A DNA stretch of 52,969 nt from positions 1-52,969 of the IMG/VR virus record IMGVR_UViG_3300025098_000066, one strand, 5' to 3'. The position numbers and the translations under genes were made by a program. Below are positions 534 to 33,512 of the stretch, piece by piece. This DNA comes from a virus. Taxonomy: Duplodnaviria; Caudoviricetes. The notes under the pieces were generated by a model. It saw nothing but the letters and a program-made list of their open reading frames with translations. It was not told where the DNA came from and did not search any database. The number at the start of each line of letters is the position of its first letter. Positions within the stretch are counted from its first letter, which is position 1.

Positions 534-1814
534 ATGCTGTTTAATCCACTATTGCGCCACCTAAATCCACGAAGTTCAGGCCTTATTGTATTTAAAGGTG
601 GCGGTGGTGGCGGTACTCCAGAACCTGTTGTAGAAGAAGTAGAGGTAGAGGAAGTTGTTACCACACCTATAGCACCACCTCCACCTCCTCCTCCACCAGC
701 GCCTACTATCGATACTTCCAATCTAGCTAAGTCGGCTGCAATGGATGCAGGTTTTGCCAGCGTACTAGGCGATACGGGCAATATCTTATCCGACACTGGT
801 CAGATTAAATCCAACGTGAATACAGGTTTTGCGTCTATTGAAGACTTGCTGGGTCAGTATAATACTGCCTCACAACAGCAATTCAGCAACCTAAGTCAGG
901 GCCAGACCGCTGGCTTTCAGGACATGGGCAATCGCTTCGATACTGTCGATCAAGCTACAAGCAATCTTCAAGGCACGGTTGATCAAGGATTTGTAGATCA
1001 GGCACAGGGCTTTAGTGATGCACAGGCTAATCGCACGGCTAATGCGGCCCAAGCAGACGCAAGTTTTGCTGCCGCTGGTCAGGCTATGGATCAAGGATTT
1101 GCAAAAACCTCAGACCAGATGACCCAAACTCAGGCTAACGTCTTGGGCGGTCAAGCTAATATGCAAACAAATCTAGATACTATGTCTGACACTGCCGATA
1201 TTTACGCAGCCCAATCTATGCAAAACCAAGAAGCCCTGCAACAGGGTCAGGATCAATTTGTAAGTAGCTTTGATGATTACACTGACCGCTATGGTCAAGA
1301 TCAGAAATTAGCAACCAACTCCCGCAATGATATTTTTGAAGCACAGGCCAATCAATCTGAGAAACTGCGGGAAGATATTGGCGACTACTCACAGACGCTC
1401 CAAACTGGTCAGAAAGATTTGACGACTGAAATACAAGAACGCTCCGTTGGGTTGGAAGAACAGTTTGCTGAAGGTCTGGCTGGTCTGGATGCATCACAGA
1501 TTACACAGGCCCGTGATCAGGCTAGATCAGCTTCCCGGCTAACAAATCTAGAACCTGCAATGCGTACTAAGTTTAGCCAACTAGGCGCTTCATTTGATGA
1601 TGGAGGTCAACTTATTGCGAGTAGCATTGACGCAGATGGCGGCACAACAAACCGCTCAGTTGATCGCACTGGAAACCTTCTACTCAACAAATTTGATGTC
1701 ACTGGTCGATCAATGGGCGGAACATCAATTAACCTTCGTACCTCTCTTCAAGAGTTGAGCGACTTACAGGGCCGAGCAAGTGGCTTTGCCTCTCCATTCA
1801 CACAAACAGGATAA
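534..1814 (+). CDS. Putative internal virion/ejection protein
   Basis: 20-aa leader then KGGGGG; Pro-rich linker; Q/A/D-rich helical body; position. Confidence 0.55.
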   Translation: MLFNPLLRHLNPRSSGLIVFKGGGGGGTPEPVVEEVEVEEVVTTPIAPPPPPPPPAPTIDTSNLAKSAAMDAGFASVLGDTGNILSDTGQIKSNVNTGFASIEDLLGQYNTASQQQFSNLSQGQTAGFQDMGNRFDTVDQATSNLQGTVDQGFVDQAQGFSDAQANRTANAAQADASFAAAGQAMDQGFAKTSDQMTQTQANVLGGQANMQTNLDTMSDTADIYAAQSMQNQEALQQGQDQFVSSFDDYTDRYGQDQKLATNSRNDIFEAQANQSEKLREDIGDYSQTLQTGQKDLTTEIQERSVGLEEQFAEGLAGLDASQITQARDQARSASRLTNLEPAMRTKFSQLGASFDDGGQLIASSIDADGGTTNRSVDRTGNLLLNKFDVTGRSMGGTSINLRTSLQELSDLQGRASGFASPFTQTG

Positions 1815-2788: not shown

Positions 2789-2969
2789 AACCCAGCTTGA
2801 AATCTACTGCCCTCAAATCAAGCAGTACGATGAGCGGTTCAACACTAAATTAGCTGATGAATTAGAAAGTCTTCCCGCCACTGCTACGGCAATCGATGAG
2901 GCTGTCAAAAACTACATATACCTGCGTGATCGCATTCGCAGATGTAATGAGGAAAAGGATAAGATCTGA
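2724..2969 (+). CDS. Putative outer-membrane spanin lipoprotein (Rz1-like)
   Basis: Start moved to ATG 2724: MRAILLLTAALSLTG-C lipobox. Confidence 0.65.
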   Translation: MRAILLLTAALSLTGCAKTVYRTQLEIYCPQIKQYDERFNTKLADELESLPATATAIDEAVKNYIYLRDRIRRCNEEKDKI

Positions 2970-5371
2970 TGGGCGATTTTTGGGCAGACAATTTTGGCGG
3001 TGGTAATAGCTTCAAGGAAAGCGCAGCTAATGTGTTTACTCCTAACGATGGGGCTTCTTATGTAAACGGTACATTAACTTATGACAGCGGTAGTAACGCA
3101 GGTACGGTAGTCAAGGCAAACTCCTCTGGAGGGTTTGGTAGTGATGATGATGGTAAAGCAATTTATTCTGGTTCTGCAAATAACACCACTACAAACTCCG
3201 ATAACATTTCAGGTAATAAAAATAACGACTTCGTATTTAAAGGTACGGCCCCTAGCTCTAGCGGAGTTAACAAACTACTAGGGTTTGCTAACCCTTTTAG
3301 TGTCATCGGTAAGATTTCTGGCTGGGCGGCAGGAATTGATCCAGAAGTCGATGATAAGAAGGTTGTGGATGGTCAGCAAATCTACACTAAAACAGGTGAA
3401 GGAGGGATGTCGTACTCATACAACTTCCTAAATCAACCTTACGAGGTGGATGTCGTAGACGGTAAGGTTGTTGATAAGTTATCACAGGATAAAAATGGTA
3501 AATACCCTGGGGATGAGGGATATGATAAGTCTACCACCCGATACGCTGAAATGGCTGAAGATCTCCGCAAACAAGGTAAGGATGACGAAGCTGATGCAGT
3601 TATGCAGGAAGCCGAGGATAATGCTAATCCAAATGATGGCAGTGACGCCGCATCTACTGGCGCTGAAACAATTGTTAAGATGGCTCAAGAAGCAGGTATG
3701 GCTGCGAGTAACGAGCAGATCCAAGCTATCATCGATGATCCTGCGGGATGGTTAAAAGCAAATGGTGCAACTTTAGTAGATAAAGTTCCTAATTTAGATC
3801 CAGAAACAGCGGGTACACTATTAGATCCAAATAGCCCTAACTATCTCTTAGGAGAAAGTCCTAAAGTCGATATAAGCACCGTGGGGGCTATTTCTACAGT
3901 CGATAGTATGGAGAACCCAGAGGCAGAAACTTATGATGCTAGTACTACTGCAAACCAACTAGGAACGGATGAAACCACGGTTGATGCAGCTATAGGTAAT
4001 ATCCGTGATGAAAACCTGGTAGATGCTGAACAGATCGACATGCAGGGCGCTGCTACAGGCGTTAATGCTGATGGCACACGAAGTGTCACGGGAGAAGCAC
4101 TAAACGATTTTGCTGCCCAAGACATTAGTATGATTATTGATACGTCTACCGTTGGAGGTAAGCTCCTTGCAGATAAATTAGGGCAAGGGAACTACACTGA
4201 TAGCAAGGCTACTATTTTAGGGCAGATGGAGATTATCTCCGCTGAGTTTAAAAATAGTAATGGTGACCCTGTGATTCCCACATGGGCGCAAGCACTTTCC
4301 CGTGACGTTGCAAAGACTATGGCATTCTCAGGTATTTCTGGGACAGCACAGACTGCCGCCATGTCTAACGCAATCATGGAAGCCACCTTGGGGATTGCGG
4401 AAAAAGAAGCCACCTTCTTTCAGACATTAACTACAAAGAATTTAGATAACCGCCAACAGGCCATCATCAATAAGGCCAGTGTTCTTGCAAAATTTGAAGT
4501 AGCTAATTTAGATGCTCGACAGGCCGCAGCGGTACAGAATGCTAAAGCCTTCTTACAAATGGACATGGCTAACCTGACCAATGAGCAACAGGCAGAAGTT
4601 GTAAACACTCAGGCGATGGTTGATGCCCTCTTTAATGACCAGGCTGCAATAAATGCTGCACGATTGTTTGGGGCAGAACAGTCCAACGATATGCAGAAGT
4701 ATTACGATAATATGAATGCACAAATCTCCATGCAAAACTCTGAGCAGATCAATCAGATGAAAAAGTTCAATGCTGGTGAAATCAATGATGGGCGAGAATT
4801 CAACTCAAGATTAGAGCAATCCCGCCAAGAGTTTTACGCCAACATGCAGTACAACTTAGATCTGGCTAATGCCAAGTGGCGTCAGACGGTGGCAACAACA
4901 AACACCGAAATGCAGTTTGAGGCAGCTACATTAGACGTAAAAAACACCTTAGATCTTTCCACAGAAGCCATGACCCGTATGTGGGATCGTGTAGATAATA
5001 TGTTGGACTATATTTTTAAAGGATGGAATGCGGAAGCAGATCGTGATGCTACAATCCTCGCCGCAGAAATTAGAGCGCAAGCATCCGCTGGGGGTGGTGG
5101 TAATGGTATCATAGATGGTTTGTTTAGCCTTGGTGCAGCTTGGATCACATCTAAATCAGATGAACGCCTGAAAGAAAATATTGAATACTTCGACACAATC
5201 CGAGGGGTGAAATATTACACTTGGGATTGGAACAGCGAAGGAAAGCGGGTGGGGGCAGACAAGTACCCTAGTTTTGGCGTGATCGCTCAACAAGTACAGA
5301 AAAAATATCCAAATGCAGTGTCTACGGGTGAGGATGGATACCTAATGGTAAACTATGGAGAGATCCAATGA
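2969..5371 (+). CDS. Virion protein with C-terminal peptidase S74-like (intramolecular chaperone) domain
   Basis: KSDERLKENIE...YYTWDWN...GVIAQQVQ...GYLMVNY; long A/Q/N-rich helical region. Confidence 0.7.
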   Translation: MGDFWADNFGGGNSFKESAANVFTPNDGASYVNGTLTYDSGSNAGTVVKANSSGGFGSDDDGKAIYSGSANNTTTNSDNISGNKNNDFVFKGTAPSSSGVNKLLGFANPFSVIGKISGWAAGIDPEVDDKKVVDGQQIYTKTGEGGMSYSYNFLNQPYEVDVVDGKVVDKLSQDKNGKYPGDEGYDKSTTRYAEMAEDLRKQGKDDEADAVMQEAEDNANPNDGSDAASTGAETIVKMAQEAGMAASNEQIQAIIDDPAGWLKANGATLVDKVPNLDPETAGTLLDPNSPNYLLGESPKVDISTVGAISTVDSMENPEAETYDASTTANQLGTDETTVDAAIGNIRDENLVDAEQIDMQGAATGVNADGTRSVTGEALNDFAAQDISMIIDTSTVGGKLLADKLGQGNYTDSKATILGQMEIISAEFKNSNGDPVIPTWAQALSRDVAKTMAFSGISGTAQTAAMSNAIMEATLGIAEKEATFFQTLTTKNLDNRQQAIINKASVLAKFEVANLDARQAAAVQNAKAFLQMDMANLTNEQQAEVVNTQAMVDALFNDQAAINAARLFGAEQSNDMQKYYDNMNAQISMQNSEQINQMKKFNAGEINDGREFNSRLEQSRQEFYANMQYNLDLANAKWRQTVATTNTEMQFEAATLDVKNTLDLSTEAMTRMWDRVDNMLDYIFKGWNAEADRDATILAAEIRAQASAGGGGNGIIDGLFSLGAAWITSKSDERLKENIEYFDTIRGVKYYTWDWNSEGKRVGADKYPSFGVIAQQVQKKYPNAVSTGEDGYLMVNYGEIQ

Positions 5372-11600: not shown

Positions 11601-12343
11601 AAGCAATACTAGAAGCTACTGACAACAACCCTGTTGTGCGTGGAGGGTTGAAAAAACTTTACCTAAAGGAGTTGAGAGATAAAGCATTCACTGCGGGGCA
11701 GACATCTTCTGGCGCACCCGTAACTAGCGTAGCTAAAGTTCGCAACATACTTAAAGAAAACACAGGGCTTGCGGCGTCAGGGGAAATCATTCTTGCGGGT
11801 GAGCCTGAGTTAAATAACATCATTAAGACTATTTTAACATCTGCGTCCGAAAGTCAGGCAAAGCGTAATTCTAAAGCACTACCAGGGTCATCTGGAACAC
11901 CAGAGATCCAACAATACCAGAATGCTATCAACACTATGATCAACGTGATTGTAGGGCCACTTAATCGCATAGGTACTCAGGCAAGAACAGCGGGTAGACT
12001 TGCGGCAGAAAAGCTAGACATTGCTAATCGGTATGAGATTGCTATGGACGTTGTAGTAGCTGACAGTAAGCTTGCGTTAGAAGTCATAGAAAAGCTTGAG
12101 AAGCGTAGAGCTACTAAGGGAGTAGGACCATTTCGACTACCCCGTGATATGTACGATGAAATGTTCTCTTTAGGTATTCGCATAGGAAAGTATGCGGAAG
12201 CAGACAGAGAAGATACATACAAATCCTGGGACGAGTACGTCATTGATGGGGCTGAAGCCGTAGATGGTACGGTAGAAGATGCCAGGTCCACACTAAGAAA
12301 AATTGGGGATCAGACAATCGAAATGCTGGGACTAGGTAGGTAA
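8678..12343 (+). CDS. Large putative internal virion (ejection) protein
   Basis: 1221 aa, helical, last gene of the structural arm. Confidence 0.55.
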   Translation: MAGPEISVEDILLDLQEDDQPSVEDILADLRKDGSSEEKKNQPEDPTVNPELVSYASELTNIQGGYEAADLEAAGFTNEEIQAYSDSIGQEMQEPKGDGSKLYLGVPGTDVYDGLKIGYKEDSFENREPDAEVSAFEIYNAYADNENTVIDPTTGNLTYNDPVSGQSFILYYPARAGTSVPIIQDVWNEAVRRLRPDYYADKPAGVNEGTRLINEVTDSLTNTVEFVAALGDIAADKVGLDTSFVEWTNTIPRTSSGFSKFDAVTGEGVGLAASFFTGKIVSDAAVEGGEFLLKRFMSPISKTSTWMKVGQPVIEKAYEPTRQLLKYSGGDLGVALGADTNTEAFIAPFDVDPNDPKAEQILAARMNIFVDSLIMSGVMDTALKAGLKTADFVNEASVGAIARSLFEGDGAKMTSAMDNILSDLSAVQASSTKQDMETARQQLIEVLRKNSTLLIDQTKASKQNNDLVLDVFSALEAGEAVTPQTQARIQQIRSGIVSSSKNQGALNQQANAINVQTDRILQEEAEAALPVGSTMDDAVEGIVGSNDSRILKQQRSIFEAEEAIKTDNEAALNSILSDPNLSPALSRLGKVSSSEVSALSVAKKKEIATTLIDEAERMTKQKNDLFNAIPEGSRFDYEGFGNLIDELSTNLDQFGTEGAEFLQSRLIATIKAAYKKAKPGEEAPSTILDQFGNPVTKAPTDIADLGEELFEAGVDFKRLYNDIRPAISALAEEAFNSGKGPVGTRLRSVVKYIDDQVEFVANNNPEAKDAATNAMNYYKRDFIPLWGDAPLTDTYQTFKDTRGRGINPVAETTQSQGQVTNILESGASEEVGQLVKALEVSDLGASPETVQEYIVARTFEDLYSQITKDGINNIDPATLSATIRGYADQMRGNFDTLAMELDSLESRIKNARQTGESVSDTLVQAQEQFAAMQNDAFSKLISGFVDDFVPGMPSANVENKITSMLNSSNGADSVKAILEATDNNPVVRGGLKKLYLKELRDKAFTAGQTSSGAPVTSVAKVRNILKENTGLAASGEIILAGEPELNNIIKTILTSASESQAKRNSKALPGSSGTPEIQQYQNAINTMINVIVGPLNRIGTQARTAGRLAAEKLDIANRYEIAMDVVVADSKLALEVIEKLEKRRATKGVGPFRLPRDMYDEMFSLGIRIGKYAEADREDTYKSWDEYVIDGAEAVDGTVEDARSTLRKIGDQTIEMLGLGR

Positions 12344-12377
12344 AGAAAAACCCCCAGACCGAAATCTGAGGGCTTCT
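12342..12377. terminator. Bidirectional intrinsic terminator
   Basis: AACCCCCAGA/TCTGAGGGCT stem with A-tract on the left and TTCTT on the right, between convergent arms. Confidence 0.75.
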
Positions 12378-12406
12378 TACTAGCTAAACGGGGGACCAAC
12401 CCCGTT
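12342..12406 (-). ncRNA. Candidate trans-acting antisense sRNA (sRNA-1)
   Basis: Own promoter; 5' hairpin AACGGGG/UUGGUC/CCCCGUU; UAGCUAGUAAG linker; terminator; complementary to repeated early-gene leaders. Confidence 0.75.
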
Positions 12407-12412
12407 AAAGAT

Positions 12413-21353: not shown

Positions 21354-21877
21354 AATGTTCTCCCGTAAAATTTAGTGCGGTAGCTTTCGTCATGGCGGTC
21401 AAATAAATACCAACATGCGTTGTCTTTTCCTGTGGTGTTATCGAACCACTTTACCCGACCAATACTCACTATTTTGCGTAACCTAGGCAGGAACGGTATG
21501 GATTGCTTTGTGTGAATCCAATCCGCATCGAATAGCAGCCAGGTAGGTCTAAGGTTGGAAAAGGTTTCTATCATGGGGTGTAGAATAGATCTTTCCCAGG
21601 GCGGGTTGGTCACTATAACATCCGCATTCTTTAGGTGATGCTCCTCAATATTAAGGGCATCCAGAGTAATTATCCCAAGCCTCTGAGGCTCCAGATCATA
21701 GGCACTTACGCAGTTCATATCCATAGCCAGTAGGCAACGGATCAATGCCCCATCCCCCGCACAGGGTTCACAAAACGTCTGGATATCCTGCATGAATGGT
21801 CTGATAGGTTCAGCCGCTTCTATAGGCGTCCTATAGTAATCACGGGGCTTACGTTCAAAGTTAGATCGTTTCCCCAT
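21350..21877 (-). CDS. DNA amino-methyltransferase (N6-adenine type likely)
   Basis: DYYRTP, EPCAGDG (motif I), TNPPW (motif IV); start coupled to helicase stop. Confidence 0.85.
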   Translation of the reverse strand: MGKRSNFERKPRDYYRTPIEAAEPIRPFMQDIQTFCEPCAGDGALIRCLLAMDMNCVSAYDLEPQRLGIITLDALNIEEHHLKNADVIVTNPPWERSILHPMIETFSNLRPTWLLFDADWIHTKQSIPFLPRLRKIVSIGRVKWFDNTTGKDNACWYLFDRHDESYRTKFYGRTL

Positions 21878-23094
21878 CAGTCTACATACCTTGTTATTTC
21901 GGCCTGTAGATTGCAGATGATTTGACCATGCCAACCTGATAATTTGTTCTTGGAGATTTGTAGGAACCTAGTGGGATCAGGGCCATCATCATCCTCCCCA
22001 GAGGATTTACCCACACCACAAATAAGATCTGCTTCCGCTGCCTTACCAGTGCGGCTGTTCTCCATCATAGAGAAGTCTAGGCGTACACGTCCCTCTGCTT
22101 CCGCACTTGCCTGGGATACAGCGATGATACCGCATTCATGCCGTTTAGCTAATTCTCTAGCTTGTCGGTATATTTCACGAAGCTTTTCATGTGTACCACC
22201 AAACTGACCCGATATGTTGACTTTATCAAGTTGATCCACCACCAGGATATCAGGCTTGATACGGGCGACATACCCATCCAACATAGTCATATCCCATTCC
22301 TGGGCGTCTTTCATAATTAAACGATCACGAATTGCGAGGTAACGGCTTGAAGCTAAATCAGGGTTAGCTTGTATATCTGTTGTGGTCATTCCTGTGAATG
22401 ATTGTATCGCCCGTAGCTTCGTGCGCCGGGTTGCTTCCTCGTTACCAATGTATAGTACCTTCGCACCTTGCTGACAGAAACCATCTGGAGCAGAACATAG
22501 GCTAACAGCTAGGGCGCTCTTACCTGTTTCAGGTCTGGCGAAGATAATCATAAACTCACTAGGGCCTAGTCCGTATACATTCCTAGAAAGCTGATTGATG
22601 TTAAATTTCCATCGTGACTCATCACTTGCTTGTGCGAGTAATTCATGCAGATCATCTGTTGTCGGCTCACCAAAATCGTCTGGAAGGTAGTCTTCTGAGG
22701 TGCGCTCAATCAGGCTCTTCAGTTTAGCCATTGCATCCACATGGCCTTCAGCCATTTGAATACCTAAGTTGGTTACATCCCGGCCTGTCTCTTTGCGCCA
22801 GAGATCCCCAATAACATCCCGTGCTATCTCTTGTGTCAGGGGTGTTTGCTGCCGCACTTCCGCTAACGTATCAGCAAAGTCTTCTTTCTCAGAAACTGTA
22901 GCTACGGGGTTGTTGGTGGCCCAGATTGCTAGGATGTCGTTAGTATTAACATCCTGATCATATTTATCCTGTGCCTGGGCAATGGTTTTATAAACCTCTG
23001 CATTGTTACCTGTGAATAGTGACTGCCTCATTTTTGTTTTATTTGCTTGATAGAATTCTGAAGACAGTAGCGTCTTCAACAATGCTTTATCCAT
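21877..23094 (-). CDS. DnaB-like (SF4) replicative helicase
   Basis: ARPETGKS Walker A, VVDQLD, VSQ, KNKLSG. Confidence 0.92.
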   Translation of the reverse strand: MDKALLKTLLSSEFYQANKTKMRQSLFTGNNAEVYKTIAQAQDKYDQDVNTNDILAIWATNNPVATVSEKEDFADTLAEVRQQTPLTQEIARDVIGDLWRKETGRDVTNLGIQMAEGHVDAMAKLKSLIERTSEDYLPDDFGEPTTDDLHELLAQASDESRWKFNINQLSRNVYGLGPSEFMIIFARPETGKSALAVSLCSAPDGFCQQGAKVLYIGNEEATRRTKLRAIQSFTGMTTTDIQANPDLASSRYLAIRDRLIMKDAQEWDMTMLDGYVARIKPDILVVDQLDKVNISGQFGGTHEKLREIYRQARELAKRHECGIIAVSQASAEAEGRVRLDFSMMENSRTGKAAEADLICGVGKSSGEDDDGPDPTRFLQISKNKLSGWHGQIICNLQAEITRYVD

Positions 23095-23684: not shown

Positions 23685-24467
23685 TCAATAATAATCATTT
23701 AGCAGTCTCTCTGTATCTTGTAAGTTTAGAACCTTTAGATCTAACTTAGTTATCCTCATTGTTGTGGACTTAGATAAAGCCCGACACATAAACACTGCCT
23801 TTTGTTTAGCGTCATTGTCAAGGACAATAATTATTTTATTGTAACTATTAAGTGATTTTTCGAGGTCTTTAGTTAGGTTCGTACCTAATAGTGCGACACC
23901 TACTGTATTATTACATCTGGATACAGCACAGGCAGAAGCTGCATCTTCAACTAGTACCGCTGTAGATCCCTTACCAACGTGAACTCCAGCCTGTGTATTT
24001 CCATATGACCACCACTTAGGGCCTCTACTAGAGAGGCTTCTACCAACAGCACCTTCACTAGTATGTGTATAGAAAAGGACTCTGTCCTCATTAGGGCAAT
24101 ACTTCAAAGTAACTGACCCATCTTGGTAAGCTTCATAACTATTAACTGATTTAATATATTCCACTGCGGCGGGGTGATTATCTATCGACGTAACCATTGT
24201 GGGTAGAGGGGTAGTCTTTTTCTCAAACTTTGTTTTATTCTTTCCTGCCATATACGCTTTAGCTTCTTCAATAGTCCTGGGACCAGAGTATACACCTTTA
24301 GCTGTACAGCTTGCTTTATAGCAGTTCCAAAGAGTTTTACCGTCCATCTTGGATATACTGAATTTCTTACGTCCACCACAGAACGGGCAATCTATAGACT
24401 TATGCTCACCATCCGTAAGATTTATAGATTGTAATATGTCCCACTGGTCACGATAACTAAAGTTCAT
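23685..24467 (-). CDS. DNA primase (Zn-binding + TOPRIM)
   Basis: CPFC...CYKASC; VLVED; LDND. Confidence 0.88.
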   Translation of the reverse strand: MNFSYRDQWDILQSINLTDGEHKSIDCPFCGGRKKFSISKMDGKTLWNCYKASCTAKGVYSGPRTIEEAKAYMAGKNKTKFEKKTTPLPTMVTSIDNHPAAVEYIKSVNSYEAYQDGSVTLKYCPNEDRVLFYTHTSEGAVGRSLSSRGPKWWSYGNTQAGVHVGKGSTAVLVEDAASACAVSRCNNTVGVALLGTNLTKDLEKSLNSYNKIIIVLDNDAKQKAVFMCRALSKSTTMRITKLDLKVLNLQDTERLLNDYY

Positions 24468-24511
24468 TGTATACCCTCCCTAGGTATTCCACCCCTGGAC
24501 GGGGTGTCCGT

Positions 24512-24580: not shown

Positions 24581-24710
24581 TAACTAATTGATATCTCTGT
24601 ATCTTATTGATATTTAATAAGTTTCGCAGACCCTGAAGGTCGTAGGTTCAAATCCTACTCCCGCAACCAAAATCCAATGATATCAGTAACTTAACTAGTA
24701 TCATTGGATT
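24581..24710. promoter_or_regulatory. attP accessory sites: two IHF consensus sites and an inverted repeat
   Basis: WATCARNNNNTTR at 24593-24581 (-) and 24681-24693 (+); IR AATCCAATGATA/TATCATTGGATT 24671-24710. Confidence 0.6.
24632..24669 (+). other. attP core: 3' half of tRNA-Met (initiator type)
   Basis: CCTGAAGGTCGTAGGTTCAAATCCTACTCCCGCAACCA = T-arm, acceptor strand and CCA; no 5' half. Confidence 0.85.
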
Positions 24711-24739: not shown

Positions 24740-25471
24740 TTACCTGTATTGATTCTGTATAGACTTATAGGTTGCTCTTTGTCTTTCTTCATCAGTCATT
24801 GGTCTGATCTGCGGTTTGTTATCACCCATAATAATGGGGAACGCTGGGGTCATAACCTTTTTAATTTCACGGGCTAATAGGACATGCTCCCATTGCGTGA
24901 CCCCTTCATCGTCCCGTACATCCAGGTAATGGAGCCAGGACCGTAGTGTGCCGTTCACATAGAGCGTGGACATCGTAAGCCCCTCTGGAAGCAGCGCACG
25001 GGCTGTTTCTTTGGCTACGTTCATAGACCTCATTTCTTCATAGGCTTCTTTCGCCGCTGTTTTAACATCAAGAGTAAGGAAACCGTTTCGGGTTTTAACT
25101 TCGTCGGTCAGGTCATCTACACTGTTCTGACGGTTCTTTGTATCTTGCCTACGATACTCACGATTTGTGAATTCTATTTCATCTGAGTATCGCTGGCTGA
25201 ATTCCTGAAAGCTGAAGCTGCGGTGACGCAATAACTGACGGGTTATATCCCTAGGAGCCTTGACCTCTACAACAGCGTTAGCCATCTCAAACACGGACCA
25301 ATGCTTATTCTTCATGCAGTATTTAAGAAGCGCCTCGGCTGTCTTATGGTTGGCCTGGTTAGATGGGTTGGAAACCCTGGCAGCATAAGAGATCAGTTCT
25401 TCGGGCGAACTGGCATCCATATTTATGGTAGGTTGAGTTAGTCCAACAAGTTTAGCTAATATTTTTACCAA
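24740..25471 (-). CDS. thyX: Flavin-dependent thymidylate synthase
   Basis: HWSVFE, RQLLRHRSFSFQEFSQRY, ETARALLP; TTG start. Confidence 0.95.
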   Translation of the reverse strand: MVKILAKLVGLTQPTINMDASSPEELISYAARVSNPSNQANHKTAEALLKYCMKNKHWSVFEMANAVVEVKAPRDITRQLLRHRSFSFQEFSQRYSDEIEFTNREYRRQDTKNRQNSVDDLTDEVKTRNGFLTLDVKTAAKEAYEEMRSMNVAKETARALLPEGLTMSTLYVNGTLRSWLHYLDVRDDEGVTQWEHVLLAREIKKVMTPAFPIIMGDNKPQIRPMTDEERQRATYKSIQNQYR

Positions 25472-25620: not shown

Positions 25621-25771
25621 CTGTTTTTCTTAGCTCCCAGCGGATGGCAGTAACTAAATCGATAAACCGTTCAGTGAGCGGGTAAATATGATATGTAGGA
25701 ATATCCGCTGACTTAAATACCTTCCTCAGTTCATCTTCAAAGGCTGCTCTTGCCTCATTTACATTTCTCAT
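25610..25771 (-). CDS. Hypothetical 53-aa protein (not in ORF track)
   Basis: ATGA-coupled to integrase stop; MRNVNEARAAFEDELRKVF... Confidence 0.6.
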   Translation of the reverse strand: MRNVNEARAAFEDELRKVFKSADIPTYHIYPLTERFIDLVTAIRWELRKTDGR

Positions 25772-26874
25772 CTTCCGTGCCTTTTTCTTGCTGCGGTTGC
25801 TGCCATGCGGCGGGTTTTCTTGACGTAGACACTCACCACTTCCCGTGAAGTATGGCCTGTAAGCGCCATGATTTCGTCTTCTGTAAGACCAGCTTCTCCA
25901 GCCTCTGTAGCGCCAGTACGGCGTAAGTCTGAGATCTTGAGTTCTTCGGGTAGCCCAGCGGCTTTGCGCACCTCTGCTACCGTCTTATAAGCCCACCGAG
26001 TGTAAGGCCGACCTGTACGCTCATTAAGAATAATGAAGTCATTTTTGCCGCCACGGGTTAGGCTGTCGAGCCGTTCCTTCAGTTGCTCATTCACAACAGG
26101 GACAGACACTAGGTTGCCTTGCGGTTTACGAACCGTGCGGCTCTTCTCCTGCACAAAGTCGAAGAAGCCATCATCTTGGAGATCATAATTGCCCCAACGG
26201 ATCTGTCGCATGTCTCCAATACGCTGGCATAGATCGTAGCACATCAAGGCTAACGTACCTATCGACCACAGATCCATTTCGTCAGCTTTAGCTACAAATA
26301 TATCTATGTGTTCCTTCTCCCAGCGAACATCCCGTGAGGGTAGAGTGGCTAGACCCATCTTAGAAAAGGGGTTGGAACGTGTAAGACCTAAACGGAAACC
26401 TACGAACCACACACGGCGTAAAACTTTACACACATGGTTTGCACGATGCTCACTCACATCGTTACACAGTTGTTTGTGTAAGCTTTCCACTACTTTTACG
26501 GTGATATTGTGGTGCAGGGTCTGACCAAAGACGATATTTGAGCGTCCTATGCGAGTATTGATCACAGAATCTATAAGTTGCTGGTATGTATTCTTACTAT
26601 TGACCGAAAGACGGTCCCAATTGGATGTATTTTTATACGCAGCTATTAATCCATTAACAGAGTTCTCACTGATGTGCTTTTGCCTATCAATCCCTCGTTT
26701 GTAATCTAGAAATGCCTTCTCCCATTCCATGCAGCGGTCAACGGCGTCTTTTTTCTCTTGGTAGCTTTCATATTTGACCAGGAGTGCTTCTCGCACCGCC
26801 TTAGATGGGTTTGCACCCCAAGATATTTGACCTGTGGACAGCACATGCCGTTCTAAGTATTTAATCGATCCCAT
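25768..26874 (-). CDS. int: Tyrosine integrase
   Basis: QRIGD, KS, SDLRRT, LTGH...VY catalytic residues; start reassigned to ATG 26874 with GGGAGG SD. Confidence 0.92.
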   Translation of the reverse strand: MGSIKYLERHVLSTGQISWGANPSKAVREALLVKYESYQEKKDAVDRCMEWEKAFLDYKRGIDRQKHISENSVNGLIAAYKNTSNWDRLSVNSKNTYQQLIDSVINTRIGRSNIVFGQTLHHNITVKVVESLHKQLCNDVSEHRANHVCKVLRRVWFVGFRLGLTRSNPFSKMGLATLPSRDVRWEKEHIDIFVAKADEMDLWSIGTLALMCYDLCQRIGDMRQIRWGNYDLQDDGFFDFVQEKSRTVRKPQGNLVSVPVVNEQLKERLDSLTRGGKNDFIILNERTGRPYTRWAYKTVAEVRKAAGLPEELKISDLRRTGATEAGEAGLTEDEIMALTGHTSREVVSVYVKKTRRMAATAARKRHGR

Positions 26875-26907
26875 TCTACAACCTCCCGTGGTTATGCGGA
26901 TAGGATG

Positions 26908-26937
26908 ACCATAGTTGTGGTATCGAGTCGGAGTCAA
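26908..26937 (-). promoter_or_regulatory. Integrase promoter/operator
   Basis: TTGACT-18bp-TATGGT; overlaps ACCATAGTTGTGGT and two GAGTC sites. Confidence 0.5.
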
Positions 26938-26952
26938 TAAGAAAATAATTAC

Positions 26953-26982
26953 TTGCACTTTGTTAAGTGATTGTGCTAATCT
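26953..26982 (+). promoter_or_regulatory. Promoter of sRNA-2
   Basis: TTGCAC-18bp-TAATCT with extended TG. Confidence 0.65.
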
Positions 26983-26988
26983 TAGCTC

Positions 26989-27061
26989 GTGAACATCCTC
27001 CCTGTTCACACTGTTCACTGTGTAAGAACAGCCCCCCGGTTTTATAGTCGGGGGGTTTTTT
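26989..27061 (+). ncRNA. Candidate anti-SD sRNA (sRNA-2; cuckoo/CcsR-like loop)
   Basis: GTGAACA-TCCTCCC-TGTTCAC hairpin, CTGTTC/GAACAG hairpin, CCCCCCG/CGGGGGG-T6 terminator. Confidence 0.7.
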
Positions 27062-27089
27062 GTTGCGAATCAAGTATCAGTATAAATGT

Positions 27090-27111
27090 AAAAAGCCCCA
27101 CAAAGGGGGCT
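27090..27111 (-). terminator. Intrinsic terminator
   Basis: AGCCCC/GGGGCT stem followed by T5 on the minus strand. Confidence 0.7.
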
Positions 27112-27135
27112 AATTTACTCGCACGTCAGATGTAT

Positions 27136-27429
27136 TTAAAGGGCTGTTACATGAGCTACTATCTTGTAACCGTAACTGTTGGCATCAGGGTCAACAGCCA
27201 TGCATACAGCCTTCCCAGCTTCATCTAAGTAAATAACATAGTGGTCCTTATCGTCTTCAATGGATCGTTCAGATGCATCCACCAACGCCTCTCCAATCTC
27301 TTTAGCCTGTCCTGGTCCTAGTATCATACTAATAGTCTCCTGCTCTAATGGAATTAGGTTTAATTTAAAAAATACTCGCACGTCAATCATTATTAAAGGG
27401 CTACTTAGGTGATATGATAGCGATAGCAT
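27136..27429 (-). CDS. Hypothetical protein (start uncertain)
   Basis: ORF followed by a terminator. Confidence 0.6.
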   Translation of the reverse strand: MLSLSYHLSSPLIMIDVRVFFKLNLIPLEQETISMILGPGQAKEIGEALVDASERSIEDDKDHYVIYLDEAGKAVCMAVDPDANSYGYKIVAHVTAL

Positions 27430-27605
27430 TTTTCTGCTTATTAGATGGTCAGTTATGACAAAATTCTGACAATTTTTCTTAGCATTTTTTAAAATTATAA
27501 ATTTGGTTTTTATAATTGCGAATCAATTTACCTTTGTTATGGTCATTAAGAGTCGGGATTTAACCACCCGATTTTTTTACTAGCTAAACAAAAGGACCAA
27601 AGAAA

Positions 27606-29933: not shown

Positions 29934-29993
29934 AACAATGCGCCCCCTGGATTGCCTGGGGGGCTTACTAGCTAAACAAAAGGACCAAACAAA

Positions 29994-32080: not shown

Positions 32081-32143
32081 AGGTAACCATAGTTATGGTT
32101 TGGTATAATATAGTTACTAAAACACTTAACTATGGAGAATATT

Positions 32144-32305
32144 ATGAATTATGTGTTTGCCAGCCTTAATGGTATCTTTAAATCTATCCAGAAATCACAA
32201 CAGCAACGAGCTAACTATTGGCTGTTACAGAATATGTCCGACAGGCAATTAAAGGATATGGGTATATATCGTGGTGAGATTCACCATAAAGTATTTAAAC
32301 CATAG
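32144..32305 (+). CDS. DUF1127 (YjiS-like) small protein, 53 aa (not in ORF track)
   Basis: LQNMSDRQLKDMGIYRGEI; GGAG SD; TGGTATAAT promoter at 32101-32109. Confidence 0.8.
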   Translation: MNYVFASLNGIFKSIQKSQQQRANYWLLQNMSDRQLKDMGIYRGEIHHKVFKP

Positions 32306-33056: not shown

Positions 33057-33512
33057 ATGCTTGCAGAAATTGCGATGGCAAATGCTGCCTTCGGGGTAAT
33101 TAAATCCGCTGTACAGAATGGTAGAGAATTAGCTCAATGCGGTAAATCGATCAGTGACTTTTTAAGCGCAGAAGACAGTCTTAAAGACAAAGCTGAGAGC
33201 GATAAGAAGTCTATATTTAAAAAGGTCATGGGCAAAGATACAGCCGACTTTGAGAGCTTCCTAGCCCTAGATCAGATCAAAGAACAACGCCGCCAGCTTG
33301 AAAGTCATATGCGGCTCTACGGACGCCCTGGATTGTACGATAGCTGGGTAGAATACCAGGGACAGGCTCGTAAAGCACGCAAAGCGGCTGAGAAGCAGCG
33401 CCAGAAGGAAAGAGAAGAGCTTATAGAAGCTATCTCTATTTTCGCCGGGGTTATTCTTATTTTCGGCATGGCGGTAGGCGGCGCTTACCTTTTTTATATT
33501 TATAAGATGTGA
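33057..33512 (+). CDS. Hypothetical membrane protein
   Basis: Coiled coil plus C-terminal TM helix. Confidence 0.7.
   Translation: MLAEIAMANAAFGVIKSAVQNGRELAQCGKSISDFLSAEDSLKDKAESDKKSIFKKVMGKDTADFESFLALDQIKEQRRQLESHMRLYGRPGLYDSWVEYQGQARKARKAAEKQRQKEREELIEAISIFAGVILIFGMAVGGAYLFYIYKM

What the first reader, a model, noticed from the sequence alone, without database searches (positions are those of the whole stretch)
26953..27061. Second sRNA with an anti-Shine-Dalgarno loop, divergent from integrase, matching integrase and primase RBSs
Seen: the promoter places +1 at about 26989, the first base of hairpin GUGAACA-UCCUCCC-UGUUCAC, followed by a second hairpin and a strong terminator (~73 nt). 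ACAUCCUCCC pairs 9/10 with the int RBS GGGAGGUUGU (26887-26878). AUCCUCCCU pairs 9/9 (one G-U) with the primase RBS AGGGAGGGU (24481-24473). Established: alphaproteobacterial cuckoo/CcsR/alpha-r14 sRNAs display CCUCCUCCC loops. Inference: a lysis-lysogeny or host-silencing regulator. Anti-SD loops are promiscuous, so the targets are tentative.
Basis: partly seen in the sequence, partly recalled or inferred. Interest (0 to 1): 0.85.

Follow-up and report, generated by a model that had tools for sequence, protein, structure and literature searches.

The report
Conserved phage small RNA beside integrase
A group of abundant marine phages that infect Roseobacter bacteria keeps a roughly 73-base non-coding RNA gene next to its integrase gene; the tip of its first hairpin always shows a C-rich sequence that can cover ribosome-binding sites, but neither the transcript nor its targets have yet been seen.

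Summary
Window 26953-27061 (+) has a promoter-like site, a 7-bp hairpin with loop UCCUCCC, a second hairpin and an intrinsic terminator (MFE -29.9, z -4.1). The window is a complete HMO-2011-type marine phage.

The element is a conserved gene:
- A covariance model finds it at the same place, divergent from int, in 65 of 80 related viral contigs.
- It is also in the cultured roseophages CRP-235, CRP-3 and CRP-212.
- Stems covary (6 of 6 pairs) while the CUCCC core stays unpaired.
- Promoter spacing and terminator are kept.

It is not attP, which is a tRNA-Met 3' copy at 24630-24669. It is not an ORF, and it matches no Rfam family at threshold, including cuckoo/ar14.

The proposed int and primase targets are weakly supported. 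Int shows no seed-to-leader co-variation (p=0.34). Primase ranks high only in the window's clade and in CRP-235.

Best reading: a trans-acting sRNA with an anti-Shine-Dalgarno seed, targets unknown. No expression data exist. This scan noted similar int-divergent RNAs on other phage DNA (unchecked notes).

Verdict: a real RNA family that neither Rfam nor my paper searches hold, of a known mechanistic kind, in a tractable and ecologically dominant phage group.

The parts
26953..26958 (+). -35 hexamer TTGCAC of the sRNA promoter
   Evidence: Sequence. CTTGCAC is invariant in the 8 close relatives. TTGNNN-N16-18-TANNNT ends 2-12 nt before the hairpin in 33 of 51 distinct relatives, against 3.3% of shuffles. 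The consensus scan does not list it.
26974..26982 (+). Extended -10 element, TGc-TAATCT
   Evidence: Sequence. TAnnnT is kept in relatives, with 2-7 nt between it and the hairpin base.
26989..27061 (+). Predicted sRNA of about 73 nt, from the inferred +1 to the end of the U tract
   Evidence: Fold. Covariance model R1 scores 68.1 bits at 26985-27063. The sub-threshold anti-hemB alignment spans 26987-27063 over the full model.
26989..27009 (+). Hairpin 1: 7-bp stem with loop UCCUCCC (26996-27002), the presumed seed
   Evidence: All 6 modelled pairs of the helix show compensatory changes. There are 35 distinct stems around the same C-rich loop. The core is unpaired with probability 0.99.
27011..27031 (+). 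Hairpin 2: 6-bp stem with 9-nt loop, poorly conserved outside the close clade
27032..27061 (+). Intrinsic terminator: 8-bp G+C-rich stem followed by U6
   Evidence: A terminator follows the C-rich hairpin in relatives. The T tract is on the + strand only, which fixes the transcribed strand.
26908..26937 (-). Divergent int promoter-like site (TTGACT-18-TATGGT); its -35 lies 15 bp from the sRNA -35
   Evidence: Promoter scan.
25768..26887 (-). Integrase gene with Shine-Dalgarno GGGAGG (26887-26882) and ATG at 26874; neighbour and proposed target
   Evidence: Pfam PF00589 and PHROG 1. Met1 is invariant in alignment A4.
27094..27111 (-). Convergent terminator of the upstream 97-aa ORF (27136-27429, -); it bounds the sRNA gene on the other side
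   Evidence: Terminator scan. Conserved in relatives.
24465..24481 (-). Primase translation-initiation region (AGGGAGGGU ... AUG), the best in-phage candidate target in this clade

Best explanation
This is an independently transcribed, non-coding, trans-acting small RNA gene of a temperate HMO-2011-type marine phage. It belongs to an RNA family that neither Rfam nor my paper searches hold, and that sits divergently upstream of int.

Proposed mechanism. Host RNA polymerase starts at about 26989 and stops at the intrinsic terminator at about 27061. The 5' hairpin holds the C-rich sequence UCCUCCC(UGU) single-stranded in its loop. This seed pairs with G-rich Shine-Dalgarno regions of mRNAs, occluding the ribosome-binding site and lowering translation and possibly stability. 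The mRNAs may be phage ones (replication genes such as primase or helicase are the best in-silico candidates), host ones, or both.

Shown here: the gene-like anatomy, its synteny, stem covariation, and the invariance and exposure of the seed. Inferred: transcription, the trans-acting mode, and every target.
For: Anatomy: a three-hairpin fold with z -4.08, a + strand-only terminator, and no + strand gene upstream or downstream to belong to.

Context: the window is a complete viral record. It is related to HMO-2011-type roseophages by int, thyX, primase and helicase (passages of PMC9038755).

Conservation:
- The exact hairpin is in 2 further viral contigs.
- Seven close relatives keep the promoter, loop and terminator while the stems change.
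- CRP-235, CRP-3 and CRP-212 have the element at the same place with unrelated stems.
- Model R1 hits 65 of 80 int-relative loci (47 at E<=0.01), always 100-280 nt upstream of int on the opposite strand. It also hits CRP-235 (77.1 bits), CRP-3 (32.7) and CRP-212 (14.9). Fourteen of the 65 loci were in the seed alignment.

Covariation: all 6 pairs of helix 1 show double changes and 86% of cells pair. The score is 0.478 against 0.220 +/- 0.013 in shuffles (0 of 500 reach it), and slid registers give at most 0.165.

Independent script results:
- 51 of 66 distinct regions have a stem of at least 5 bp closing a C-rich loop, against 22% with shuffled flanks, and there are 35 distinct stems.
- A promoter-like site lies at a fixed distance in 33 of 51 regions, against 3.3% of shuffles.
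- The C-rich core is unpaired with p=0.99 in 48 of 48 RNAs, against 0.45 for the whole RNA.

The best Rfam resemblance is a full-length, sub-threshold match to an sRNA of the same architecture and loop (anti-hemB, 28.5 bits).
Against: No transcript has been seen: no RNA run is on record for this DNA.

The promoter hexamers are weak by the sigma-70 consensus and the scan does not list them.

No target stands out:
- Genome-wide duplex scanning puts about 20 sites ahead of the primase leader, and the int leader is not among the 25 best.
- Top predicted targets differ between the four complete genomes.
- Seed and int leader do not co-vary.

The RNA is not universal. Three of 80 loci (L077, L078, L080) have int but no C-rich RNA. 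HMO-2011, CRP-345 and CRP-738 have no R1 match anywhere (0 of 3), and int has no intergenic space before it in the three regions annotated.

A C-rich loop could also bind a protein rather than an mRNA.
Confidence: 0.6

Rival explanations
1. One reading: the sRNA represses translation of the phage's own integrase and primase by pairing with their GGGAGG ribosome-binding sites, so tuning integration against replication.
For: Both pairings exist as stated. Only 7 GGGAGG sites lie outside the sRNA in 53 kb (8 CCTCCC/GGGAGG matches against 18.5 +/- 4.2 expected), and 3 of them are Shine-Dalgarno sequences, of int, primase and the ORF at 33057. The primase leader has ddG -9.9, second among the real TIRs and beyond the control 5th percentile of -6.1. 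Six of 7 close relatives keep ddG at or below -7.7. In CRP-235, helicase, int and primase rank 1 to 3 of 60.
Against: Int ddG is only -1.0 in the window. Int leaders vary (GGGAGG, GGGGGG, GGGGAG, UGGAGA, AGGA) and show no match to the cognate seed beyond chance (p=0.34). Primase ranks 28 of 59 in CRP-3 and 56 of 58 in CRP-212.
Confidence: 0.2
2. An RNA immunity or lysis-lysogeny switch. In a phage lineage with no recognisable protein repressor, this RNA, made from the lysogeny module, keeps replication and early genes untranslated. This would be analogous to the c4 RNA of P1/P7 or the CI RNA of P4 (both recalled, not tested here).
For: It sits in the lysogeny module, back to back with the int promoter. 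None of 24 ORFs tested between 21.9 and 34.6 kb hits a repressor or HTH family in Pfam. Replication-gene leaders rank high in the window and in CRP-235 and CRP-212. The family is confined to int-bearing relatives.
Against: There are no lysogen expression data. Pfam negatives do not exclude a novel repressor; the 97-aa ORF at 27136-27429 sits where a repressor would and is unassigned. There is no Rfam C4-type match. Predicted targets are inconsistent between genomes.
Confidence: 0.15
3. A mimic of host regulation. The phage RNA imitates the host's cuckoo/CcsR-type anti-Shine-Dalgarno sRNAs, perhaps with the phage's own DUF1127 (CcaF1-like) protein, to reprogramme host mRNAs during infection or lysogeny.
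For: The hosts are Rhodobacteraceae, the family in which cuckoo RNAs cluster next to DUF1127 genes (passages of PMC4615179 and PMC8034643). The window encodes a DUF1127 protein at 32132-32305 (27.8 bits against a 23.3 cut-off), and homologues are in CRP-235, CRP-3 and CRP-212. One relative (L032) has the full CUCCUCCUCCC motif.
Against: The DUF1127 gene is 5 kb away, not adjacent. It also occurs in CRP-345 and CRP-738, which lack the RNA, so the two are not linked. There is no RF02344 match in the window or in 20 relatives. No R1 homologue was found at E<=0.001 in 151 sampled alphaproteobacterial genomes. Host targets were not testable.
Confidence: 0.15
4. Not an RNA regulator: a DNA-level element (attP or Int arm sites, an operator, or a bidirectional terminator/insulator), or a small protein-coding ORF.
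For: The region is adjacent to int, where attP often lies. A 79-codon GTG ORF formally starts at 26989.
Against: attP is elsewhere. The CRP-3 junction primers from PMC6918029 flank the gap between gp06 and primase. There, CRP-3 and the window (24630-24669) share an identical 40-nt tRNA-Met 3' portion. Stem covariation with G-U pairs, a one-strand T tract and a fixed promoter distance point to a transcript. The ORF has no Shine-Dalgarno sequence, runs through two terminators, and relatives carry 1-nt indels within it.
Confidence: 0.05

Closest known systems
Cuckoo RNAs (CcsR1-4/RSs0680 of Rhodobacter sphaeroides, NfeR1/alpha-r14 of Sinorhizobium; Rfam RF02344)
   Same: Alphaproteobacterial setting. 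Hairpin loops show a C-rich anti-Shine-Dalgarno motif. Stems are free to vary through compensatory changes while only the loop is conserved. The transcript ends in a terminator, and a DUF1127 gene is present in the same genome.
   Different: There is one 7-nt loop, UCCUCCC, instead of 2-4 hairpins each with CCUCCUCCC. The gene is single-copy and phage-borne, next to int rather than next to the DUF1127 gene. There is no RF02344 match even at E<=10.
anti-hemB / Burkholderia RNA 7 (Rfam RF02837)
   Same: It is the best Rfam score. The whole 81-position model aligns to 26987-27063 with the same layout: a 5' hairpin with loop UCCUCCCUG, a middle hairpin and a terminator. Four relatives also score 22-29 bits. 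It was proposed as a stand-alone ncRNA ending in a terminator (passages of PMC1950547).
   Different: The score is 28.5 bits against a gathering score of 49.5. That family is a betaproteobacterial chromosomal motif of unknown function. The resemblance is most likely convergent rather than homologous.
AbcR1/2 (alpha-r15) and other sRNAs with C-rich seeds such as RsaE/RoxS (names and seeds recalled; RsaE also appears at 22.9 bits)
   Same: These are trans-acting sRNAs whose exposed CUCCC/UCCC motifs pair with Shine-Dalgarno regions.
   Different: They are chromosomal, with different architectures, and nothing matches at threshold.
Phage regulatory RNAs: c4 of P1/P7, CI of P4, OOP of lambda, and prophage sRNAs of E. 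coli (recalled; recent phage-sRNA papers seen only as a search listing)
   Same: A small, terminator-ended RNA encoded in the lysogeny or immunity region of a temperate phage, expected to act by pairing at or near ribosome-binding sites.
   Different: No sequence or Rfam relation. Here the seed is a generic anti-Shine-Dalgarno sequence rather than a phage-specific complement, and no antisense overlap with a neighbouring gene is evident.

Membership tests
Cuckoo / alpha-r14 (RF02344) | 2 to 4 adjacent hairpins, each loop carrying CCUCCUCCC (PMC4615179, abstract and passages) | tested here: not met
   One hairpin has loop UCCUCCC; the loop of hairpin 2 is ACUGUGUAA.
Cuckoo / alpha-r14 (RF02344) | Match to the Rfam covariance model | tested here: not met
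   No match at gathering threshold in the window. RF02344 is not among the 17 matches at E<=10 in 26700-27300, nor among the 7 matches at E<=1 in 20 relatives.
Cuckoo / alpha-r14 (RF02344) | CIN1 context: adjacent to a DUF1127 gene, often in tandem clusters (PMC4615179, PMC8034643 passages) | tested here: not met
   The DUF1127 ORF is at 32132-32305, 5 kb away. The window holds a single copy of the RNA; the only other R1 hit is a different RNA at 12343-12409.
Cuckoo / alpha-r14 (RF02344) | Only the loop motif is conserved; stems vary by compensatory mutation | tested here: met
anti-hemB (RF02837) | Score at or above the gathering score of 49.5 bits | tested here: not met
   28.5 bits, E 1.3e-4 over 601 bases.
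Stand-alone trans-acting sRNA gene (generic kind) | Own promoter and intrinsic terminator, no ORF, not in a UTR | tested here: met
   The promoter is supported by conservation only.
Stand-alone trans-acting sRNA gene (generic kind) | Conserved single-stranded seed | tested here: met
   The CUCCC core is invariant in A5 and unpaired with p=0.99 in 48 of 48 RNAs.
Stand-alone trans-acting sRNA gene (generic kind) | Detected transcript of the predicted size; defined mRNA targets | not testable with these tools
   No RNA run holds this DNA. The runs laid were contigs only.
Phage immunity RNAs (c4 / CI type) | Rfam match, or loops complementary to specific sites in the phage's early transcript | tested here: inconclusive
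   No Rfam match. Complementarity is to generic G-rich ribosome-binding sites, with inconsistent ranks between genomes.

The most novel reading that the evidence does not exclude
This RNA family is the missing immunity or decision factor of temperate HMO-2011-type phages. In this reading an RNA, not a protein repressor, made from the int-divergent promoter silences the G-rich ribosome-binding sites of replication genes (primase, helicase) and possibly int. That would set lysogeny against lytic growth in one of the ocean's most abundant phage groups.
Probability: 0.15. Interest if true: 0.85.

Novelty: new variant of a known kind. Interest (0 to 1): 0.62.

Why it matters
HMO-2011-type phages are described as a dominant, globally distributed marine viral group (PMC9038755, abstract). 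How their int-bearing members choose or maintain lysogeny is unknown, and no repressor is recognisable here.

A conserved, covarying RNA gene in the lysogeny module is a concrete and testable regulator. Three cultured phages (CRP-235, CRP-3, CRP-212) on one cultured host carry it, and CRP-3 is reported to integrate (PMC6918029, passages).

It would also extend phage-encoded sRNA biology, so far studied mainly in enterobacterial and vibrio systems (listing), to marine alphaproteobacterial phages. It gives Rfam-type annotation a new family: 446 int relatives were seen in viral contigs, and 65 of the 80 examined carry the RNA.

Tried and rejected
attP hypothesis, rejected. The int-adjacent gap could have been attP or the 3' end of a host gene. 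The CRP-3 junction primers (PMC6918029) map to CRP-3 2829-2849 (+) and 3642-3662 (-). The 40-nt tRNA-Met 3' portion lies between them, and in the window at 24630-24669. ARAGORN finds no whole tRNA. Fig. S2 of that paper, which shows the core, is a supplement I could not see.

Coding ORF, rejected.

Known RNA family, none. Rfam at gathering threshold gave 0 matches; only sub-threshold matches appeared.

Near-identical phage records, none by megablast. A distant search found only the CRP-235 int.

Expression. No RNA holder is listed. The four runs laid were contigs of 90-99% similar strains, probably DNA, and say nothing about transcription.

Lysogens and host copies:
- The int scan of genome contigs gave only 4 MAG loci. 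One of them (L098) carries a variant RNA, and R1 found nothing at the int-divergent place in them.
- R1 in 3 genomes gave 0 matches.
- R1 in 58 genomes of one order gave 3 marginal hits of 20.4-20.6 bits. One of them (L107) is a chromosomal hairpin with loop UCCUCCC plus a terminator.
- R1 in 151 sampled alphaproteobacterial genomes gave 0 matches at E<=0.001, with only 31 candidates scored per genome. The RNA was not found in those searched; that is not the same as absent.

Int as co-evolving target, not supported.

Specific DUF1127 link, weakened.

The 97-aa neighbour has no Pfam or PHROG family, and the Atlas gave only unnamed viral clusters at 0.77.

Host targets were not attempted. No host genome handle was available, and a 9-nt seed would give many chance hits.

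Literature. No paper holds both 'HMO-2011' and 'sRNA'. The 5 papers with 'roseophage' and 'small RNA' are unrelated by title. One search was badly posed and uninformative.
Full report
**What the window is.** The 52,969-bp window is a whole viral record, rated 100% complete. Around the finding lie these genes:
- a tyrosine integrase (25768-26874, minus strand; PF00589 and PHROG 1),
- ThyX (24740-25471, minus),
- primase (23685-24467, minus),
- a DnaB-type helicase (21877-23094, minus),
- and, beyond a divergent promoter region, plus-strand early genes including a GP88-family protein.

Megablast finds no near-identical phage record. The nearest named relatives by integrase are Roseobacter phages CRP-235 (48% aa), CRP-212 (48%) and CRP-3 (43%), then CRP-738, CRP-345, HMO-2011 and CRP-603 at 26-32%. 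These are HMO-2011-type phages, a dominant marine group. The literature says that some subgroups carry int upstream of the replication module and that CRP-3 can integrate (passages of PMC9038755, and of PMC6918029).

**The observation.**
- TTGCAC at 26953-26958, an 18-nt spacer, and TGc-TAATCT at 26974-26982;
- hairpin GUGAACA-UCCUCCC-UGUUCAC at 26989-27009;
- hairpin CUGUUC-(9 nt)-GAACAG at 27011-27031;
- a G+C-rich 8-bp stem at 27032-27055 followed by six U.

RNAfold returns exactly this structure. The energy is -29.9 kcal/mol, against -16.9 +/- 3.2 for shuffles (z -4.08; 1 of 200 shuffles folds as well). The terminator scan lists the + strand site.

The same scan does not list the promoter, whose hexamers each match the sigma-70 consensus at only 3 of 6 positions. 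It does list the divergent int promoter (26937-26908) and the convergent terminator of the 97-aa ORF (27111-27094).

The two base-pairing claims are arithmetically right: int leader 9 of 10, primase leader 9 of 9 with one G-U.

**It is a conserved gene, not a chance fold.** The exact 21-nt hairpin occurs in two other viral contigs (97% identical over 280 nt). Seven close relatives, with int 87-97% identical, were found with the int protein. They keep CTTGCAC, a TAnnnT -10 element, the CCUCCC loop and the terminator. Their stem changes in a compensatory way: GUGAACA/UGUUCAC, GUGAAUA/UGUUCAC, GUGAGU/ACUCAC, GUGAGUA/UAUUCAC.

The three cultured phages carry an equivalent element at the same place, between the homologue of the 97-aa ORF and int, on the strand opposite int:
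- CRP-235 has GUAGAC-UUCCUCCCU-GUCUAC plus a terminator.
- CRP-3 has a 5' hairpin, then AUCCUCCCUGUG, another hairpin and a terminator.
- CRP-212 has two C-rich motifs.

A profile scan of viral contigs with an int alignment found 446 relatives, of which the best 80 were kept. I built a covariance model from 15 sequences (R1). It hits 65 of the 80 loci at E<=1, and 47 at E<=0.01. Every hit lies 100-280 nt upstream of int on the opposite strand. Fourteen of the 65 loci were in the seed alignment. The model also hits the window (68.1 bits), CRP-235 (77.1), CRP-3 (32.7) and CRP-212 (14.9).

The 15 loci without a hit break down as follows:
- 3 have fewer than 100 nt upstream of int.
- 8 show by eye a C-rich-loop RNA with a terminator, of a different architecture (L052-054, L075, L079, L085, L094, L096).
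- 1 (L059) is arranged differently.
- 3 (L077, L078, L080) have no C-rich motif.

**Covariation.** On the model-fitted alignment, all 6 pairs of the first helix show changes on both sides, and 86% of cells pair. The covariation score is 0.478, against 0.220 +/- 0.013 for shuffles (0 of 500 reach it) and at most 0.165 for slid registers. That alignment leans towards the structure, so I made an independent count.
- Among 66 distinct int-upstream regions (77 loci with enough sequence), 51 have a stem of at least 5 bp closing a C-rich loop, and 50 have at least 6 bp. With shuffled flanks the figures are 22% and 9%. There are 35 different stem pairs.
- A TTGNNN-N16-18-TANNNT site ends 2-12 nt before the hairpin in 33 of those 51 regions, against 3.3% of shuffles.
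- The C-rich core is unpaired with mean probability 0.99 in 48 of 48 predicted RNAs, against 0.45 for whole RNAs.

The T tract on one strand only, and the G-U pairs, fix the transcribed strand.

**What it is not.**
- It is not attP. The published CRP-3 junction primers lie at 2829-2849 (+) and 3642-3662 (-) of CRP-3, bracketing the gap between gp06 and primase. In that gap CRP-3 and the window (24630-24669) share an identical 40-nt copy of a tRNA 3' portion. This agrees with the reported integration into tRNA-Met. The figure showing the core is a supplement I could not read.
- It is not a coding ORF. The 79-codon GTG frame that starts at 26989 has no ribosome-binding site and runs through two terminators, and relatives carry 1-nt indels in it.
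- It is not a catalogued RNA family. Rfam gives no match at gathering thresholds. In permissive mode the best match is anti-hemB (RF02837) at 28.5 bits against 49.5 required. That match is full-length, with the same layout and a loop consensus containing CCUCCCUG. Four relatives also score 22-29 bits. RF02344, the cuckoo/alpha-r14 model, never appears.

**Range.** HMO-2011, CRP-345 and CRP-738 have no R1 match anywhere in their records (0 of 3). In the three regions annotated, int follows the upstream gene without an intergenic gap. The family therefore belongs to the sub-lineage that has the divergent int arrangement.

In bacterial genomes, the int scan found only four MAG contigs, one of which carries a variant RNA. 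R1 found nothing convincing in 3, 58 and 151 alphaproteobacterial genomes. Those searches have limited sensitivity, so the RNA was not found in the genomes searched, which is not proof of absence. One marginal hit (L107) is a chromosomal hairpin with the same UCCUCCC loop followed by a terminator.

**Targets.** GGGAGG/CCTCCC is rare in the window: 8 matches against 18.5 +/- 4.2 expected. Of the seven sites outside the sRNA, three are Shine-Dalgarno sequences, of int, primase and the ORF at 33057. Even so, the proposed targets are not distinctive.
- A genome-wide duplex scan puts about 20 sites ahead of the primase leader, and the int leader is not among the 25 best.
- With the full RNA folded, the primase leader gains -9.9 kcal/mol. 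That is second among the real translation-initiation regions; the controls have a 5th percentile of -6.1 and a minimum of -10.1. Int gains only -1.0.
- In CRP-235, helicase, int and primase rank 1-3 of 60.
- In CRP-3, a tail-fibre gene ranks first, int 8th and primase 28th of 59.
- In CRP-212, helicase ranks first, int 25th and primase 56th of 58.
- The tail-fibre leader (GCAGGGAGA before the start codon) is conserved in all four genomes and ranks 1st to 7th.
- Within the window's clade, 6 of 7 relatives keep a primase-leader ddG at or below -7.7.
- Across 40 distinct sRNA/int-leader pairs there is no sign of co-evolution. The cognate mean is -9.2 and the non-cognate mean -9.1, and 1685 of 5000 permutations do as well.

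So the loop is best described as a generic anti-Shine-Dalgarno seed with a preference for GGGAG-type sites. Primase or helicase regulation is possible in some lineages. Specific control of int is unsupported.

**Relation to cuckoo RNAs and DUF1127.** Cuckoo RNAs are defined by 2-4 hairpins, each with CCUCCUCCC in the loop. They have variable stems, occur in clusters in Rhodobacteraceae, and often sit beside a DUF1127 gene (CcaF1 in Rhodobacter) (passages of PMC4615179 and PMC8034643).

The phage RNA shares the principle: a conserved C-rich loop on free-varying stems. It does not meet the defining features. However, the gene is 5 kb away, and it is also present in CRP-345 and CRP-738, which lack the RNA. 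It therefore tracks the Roseobacter host, not the RNA.

**Mechanism and verdict.** The best-supported reading (confidence 0.6) is a stand-alone, host-polymerase-transcribed, terminator-ended sRNA. Its 5' hairpin presents a C-rich seed that pairs with G-rich ribosome-binding regions of phage and/or host mRNAs and lowers their translation. The gene anatomy, conservation, covariation and seed exposure are shown. Transcription, trans action and targets are inferred.

No expression evidence could be obtained. None of the 24 ORFs tested between 21.9 and 34.6 kb hits a repressor family. This keeps open the bolder reading that the RNA is the lineage's immunity or decision factor (probability about 0.15).

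I found no paper on sRNAs of these phages in the library searched. First-reader notes of this scan describe similar int-divergent anti-Shine-Dalgarno RNAs on two other genomes, and follow-up reports describe other phage anti-SD RNAs. I did not check any of these.

Noticed in passing
window 24630-24669 (+): A 40-nt copy of the 3' part of a tRNA-Met gene, identical to a stretch of CRP-3 between its published att primers. This is the probable attP core, lying between thyX and primase, so integration would separate int-thyX from the primase operon.
   Followed up: yes
It has TTGACC-17-TATAAT, a hairpin ACGGGG-UUGGUC-CCCCGU, a single-stranded UUUAGCUAGUAAG stretch and a terminator. It is complementary to a 22-nt leader repeat found exactly twice, at 27580-27601 and 29968-29989. 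R1 hits it weakly (14.9 bits).
   Followed up: partly
window 32132-32305 (+): A 57-aa DUF1127 protein (PF06568, 27.8 bits). Homologues are present in five roseophages (CRP-235, CRP-3, CRP-212, CRP-345, CRP-738) and none was found in the SAR116 phage HMO-2011.
   Followed up: yes
L026, L043, L052-054, L056, L067-073, L082-086, L091-093, L098 (int-divergent RNAs of other clades): A second conserved hairpin has loop UUGCUAG(U) on covarying stems (CUUCA/UGAAG, CCUCA/UGAGG, CUUCC/GGAAG). The loop resembles the single-stranded UUAGCUAGU of the window's other sRNA, so the two modules may be joined in some lineages and split in this one.
   Followed up: no
window 27002-27018 (+): CUGUUCAC is repeated in tandem within the sRNA (27002-27009 and 27011-27018). 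The 5' arm GUGAACA and the 3' arm GAACAG could therefore each pair with either copy. This allows an alternative fold, though suboptimal structures within 1.3 kcal/mol keep hairpin 1.
   Followed up: partly
whole window: The hexamer CCTCCC/GGGAGG is under-represented: 8 matches against 18.5 +/- 4.2 in shuffles, and all 100 shuffles have at least 8.
   Followed up: no
L107 (a genome of the order searched), hit at about 1501-1567 (-): A chromosomal hairpin AGGGCGG-UCCUCCC-CCGCUCU followed directly by a strong terminator, just after a stop codon. It may be a host analogue or a 3'UTR-derived anti-SD RNA. The hit is marginal (20.5 bits).
   Followed up: partly
window 27116-27140 and the same place in relatives: The last codons of the 97-aa ORF (around ACTCGCACGTCA) are conserved at the DNA level across clades whose int is only 41-49% identical. 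That is more than a short unassigned protein tail would suggest, so it may be a DNA or RNA site.
   Followed up: no
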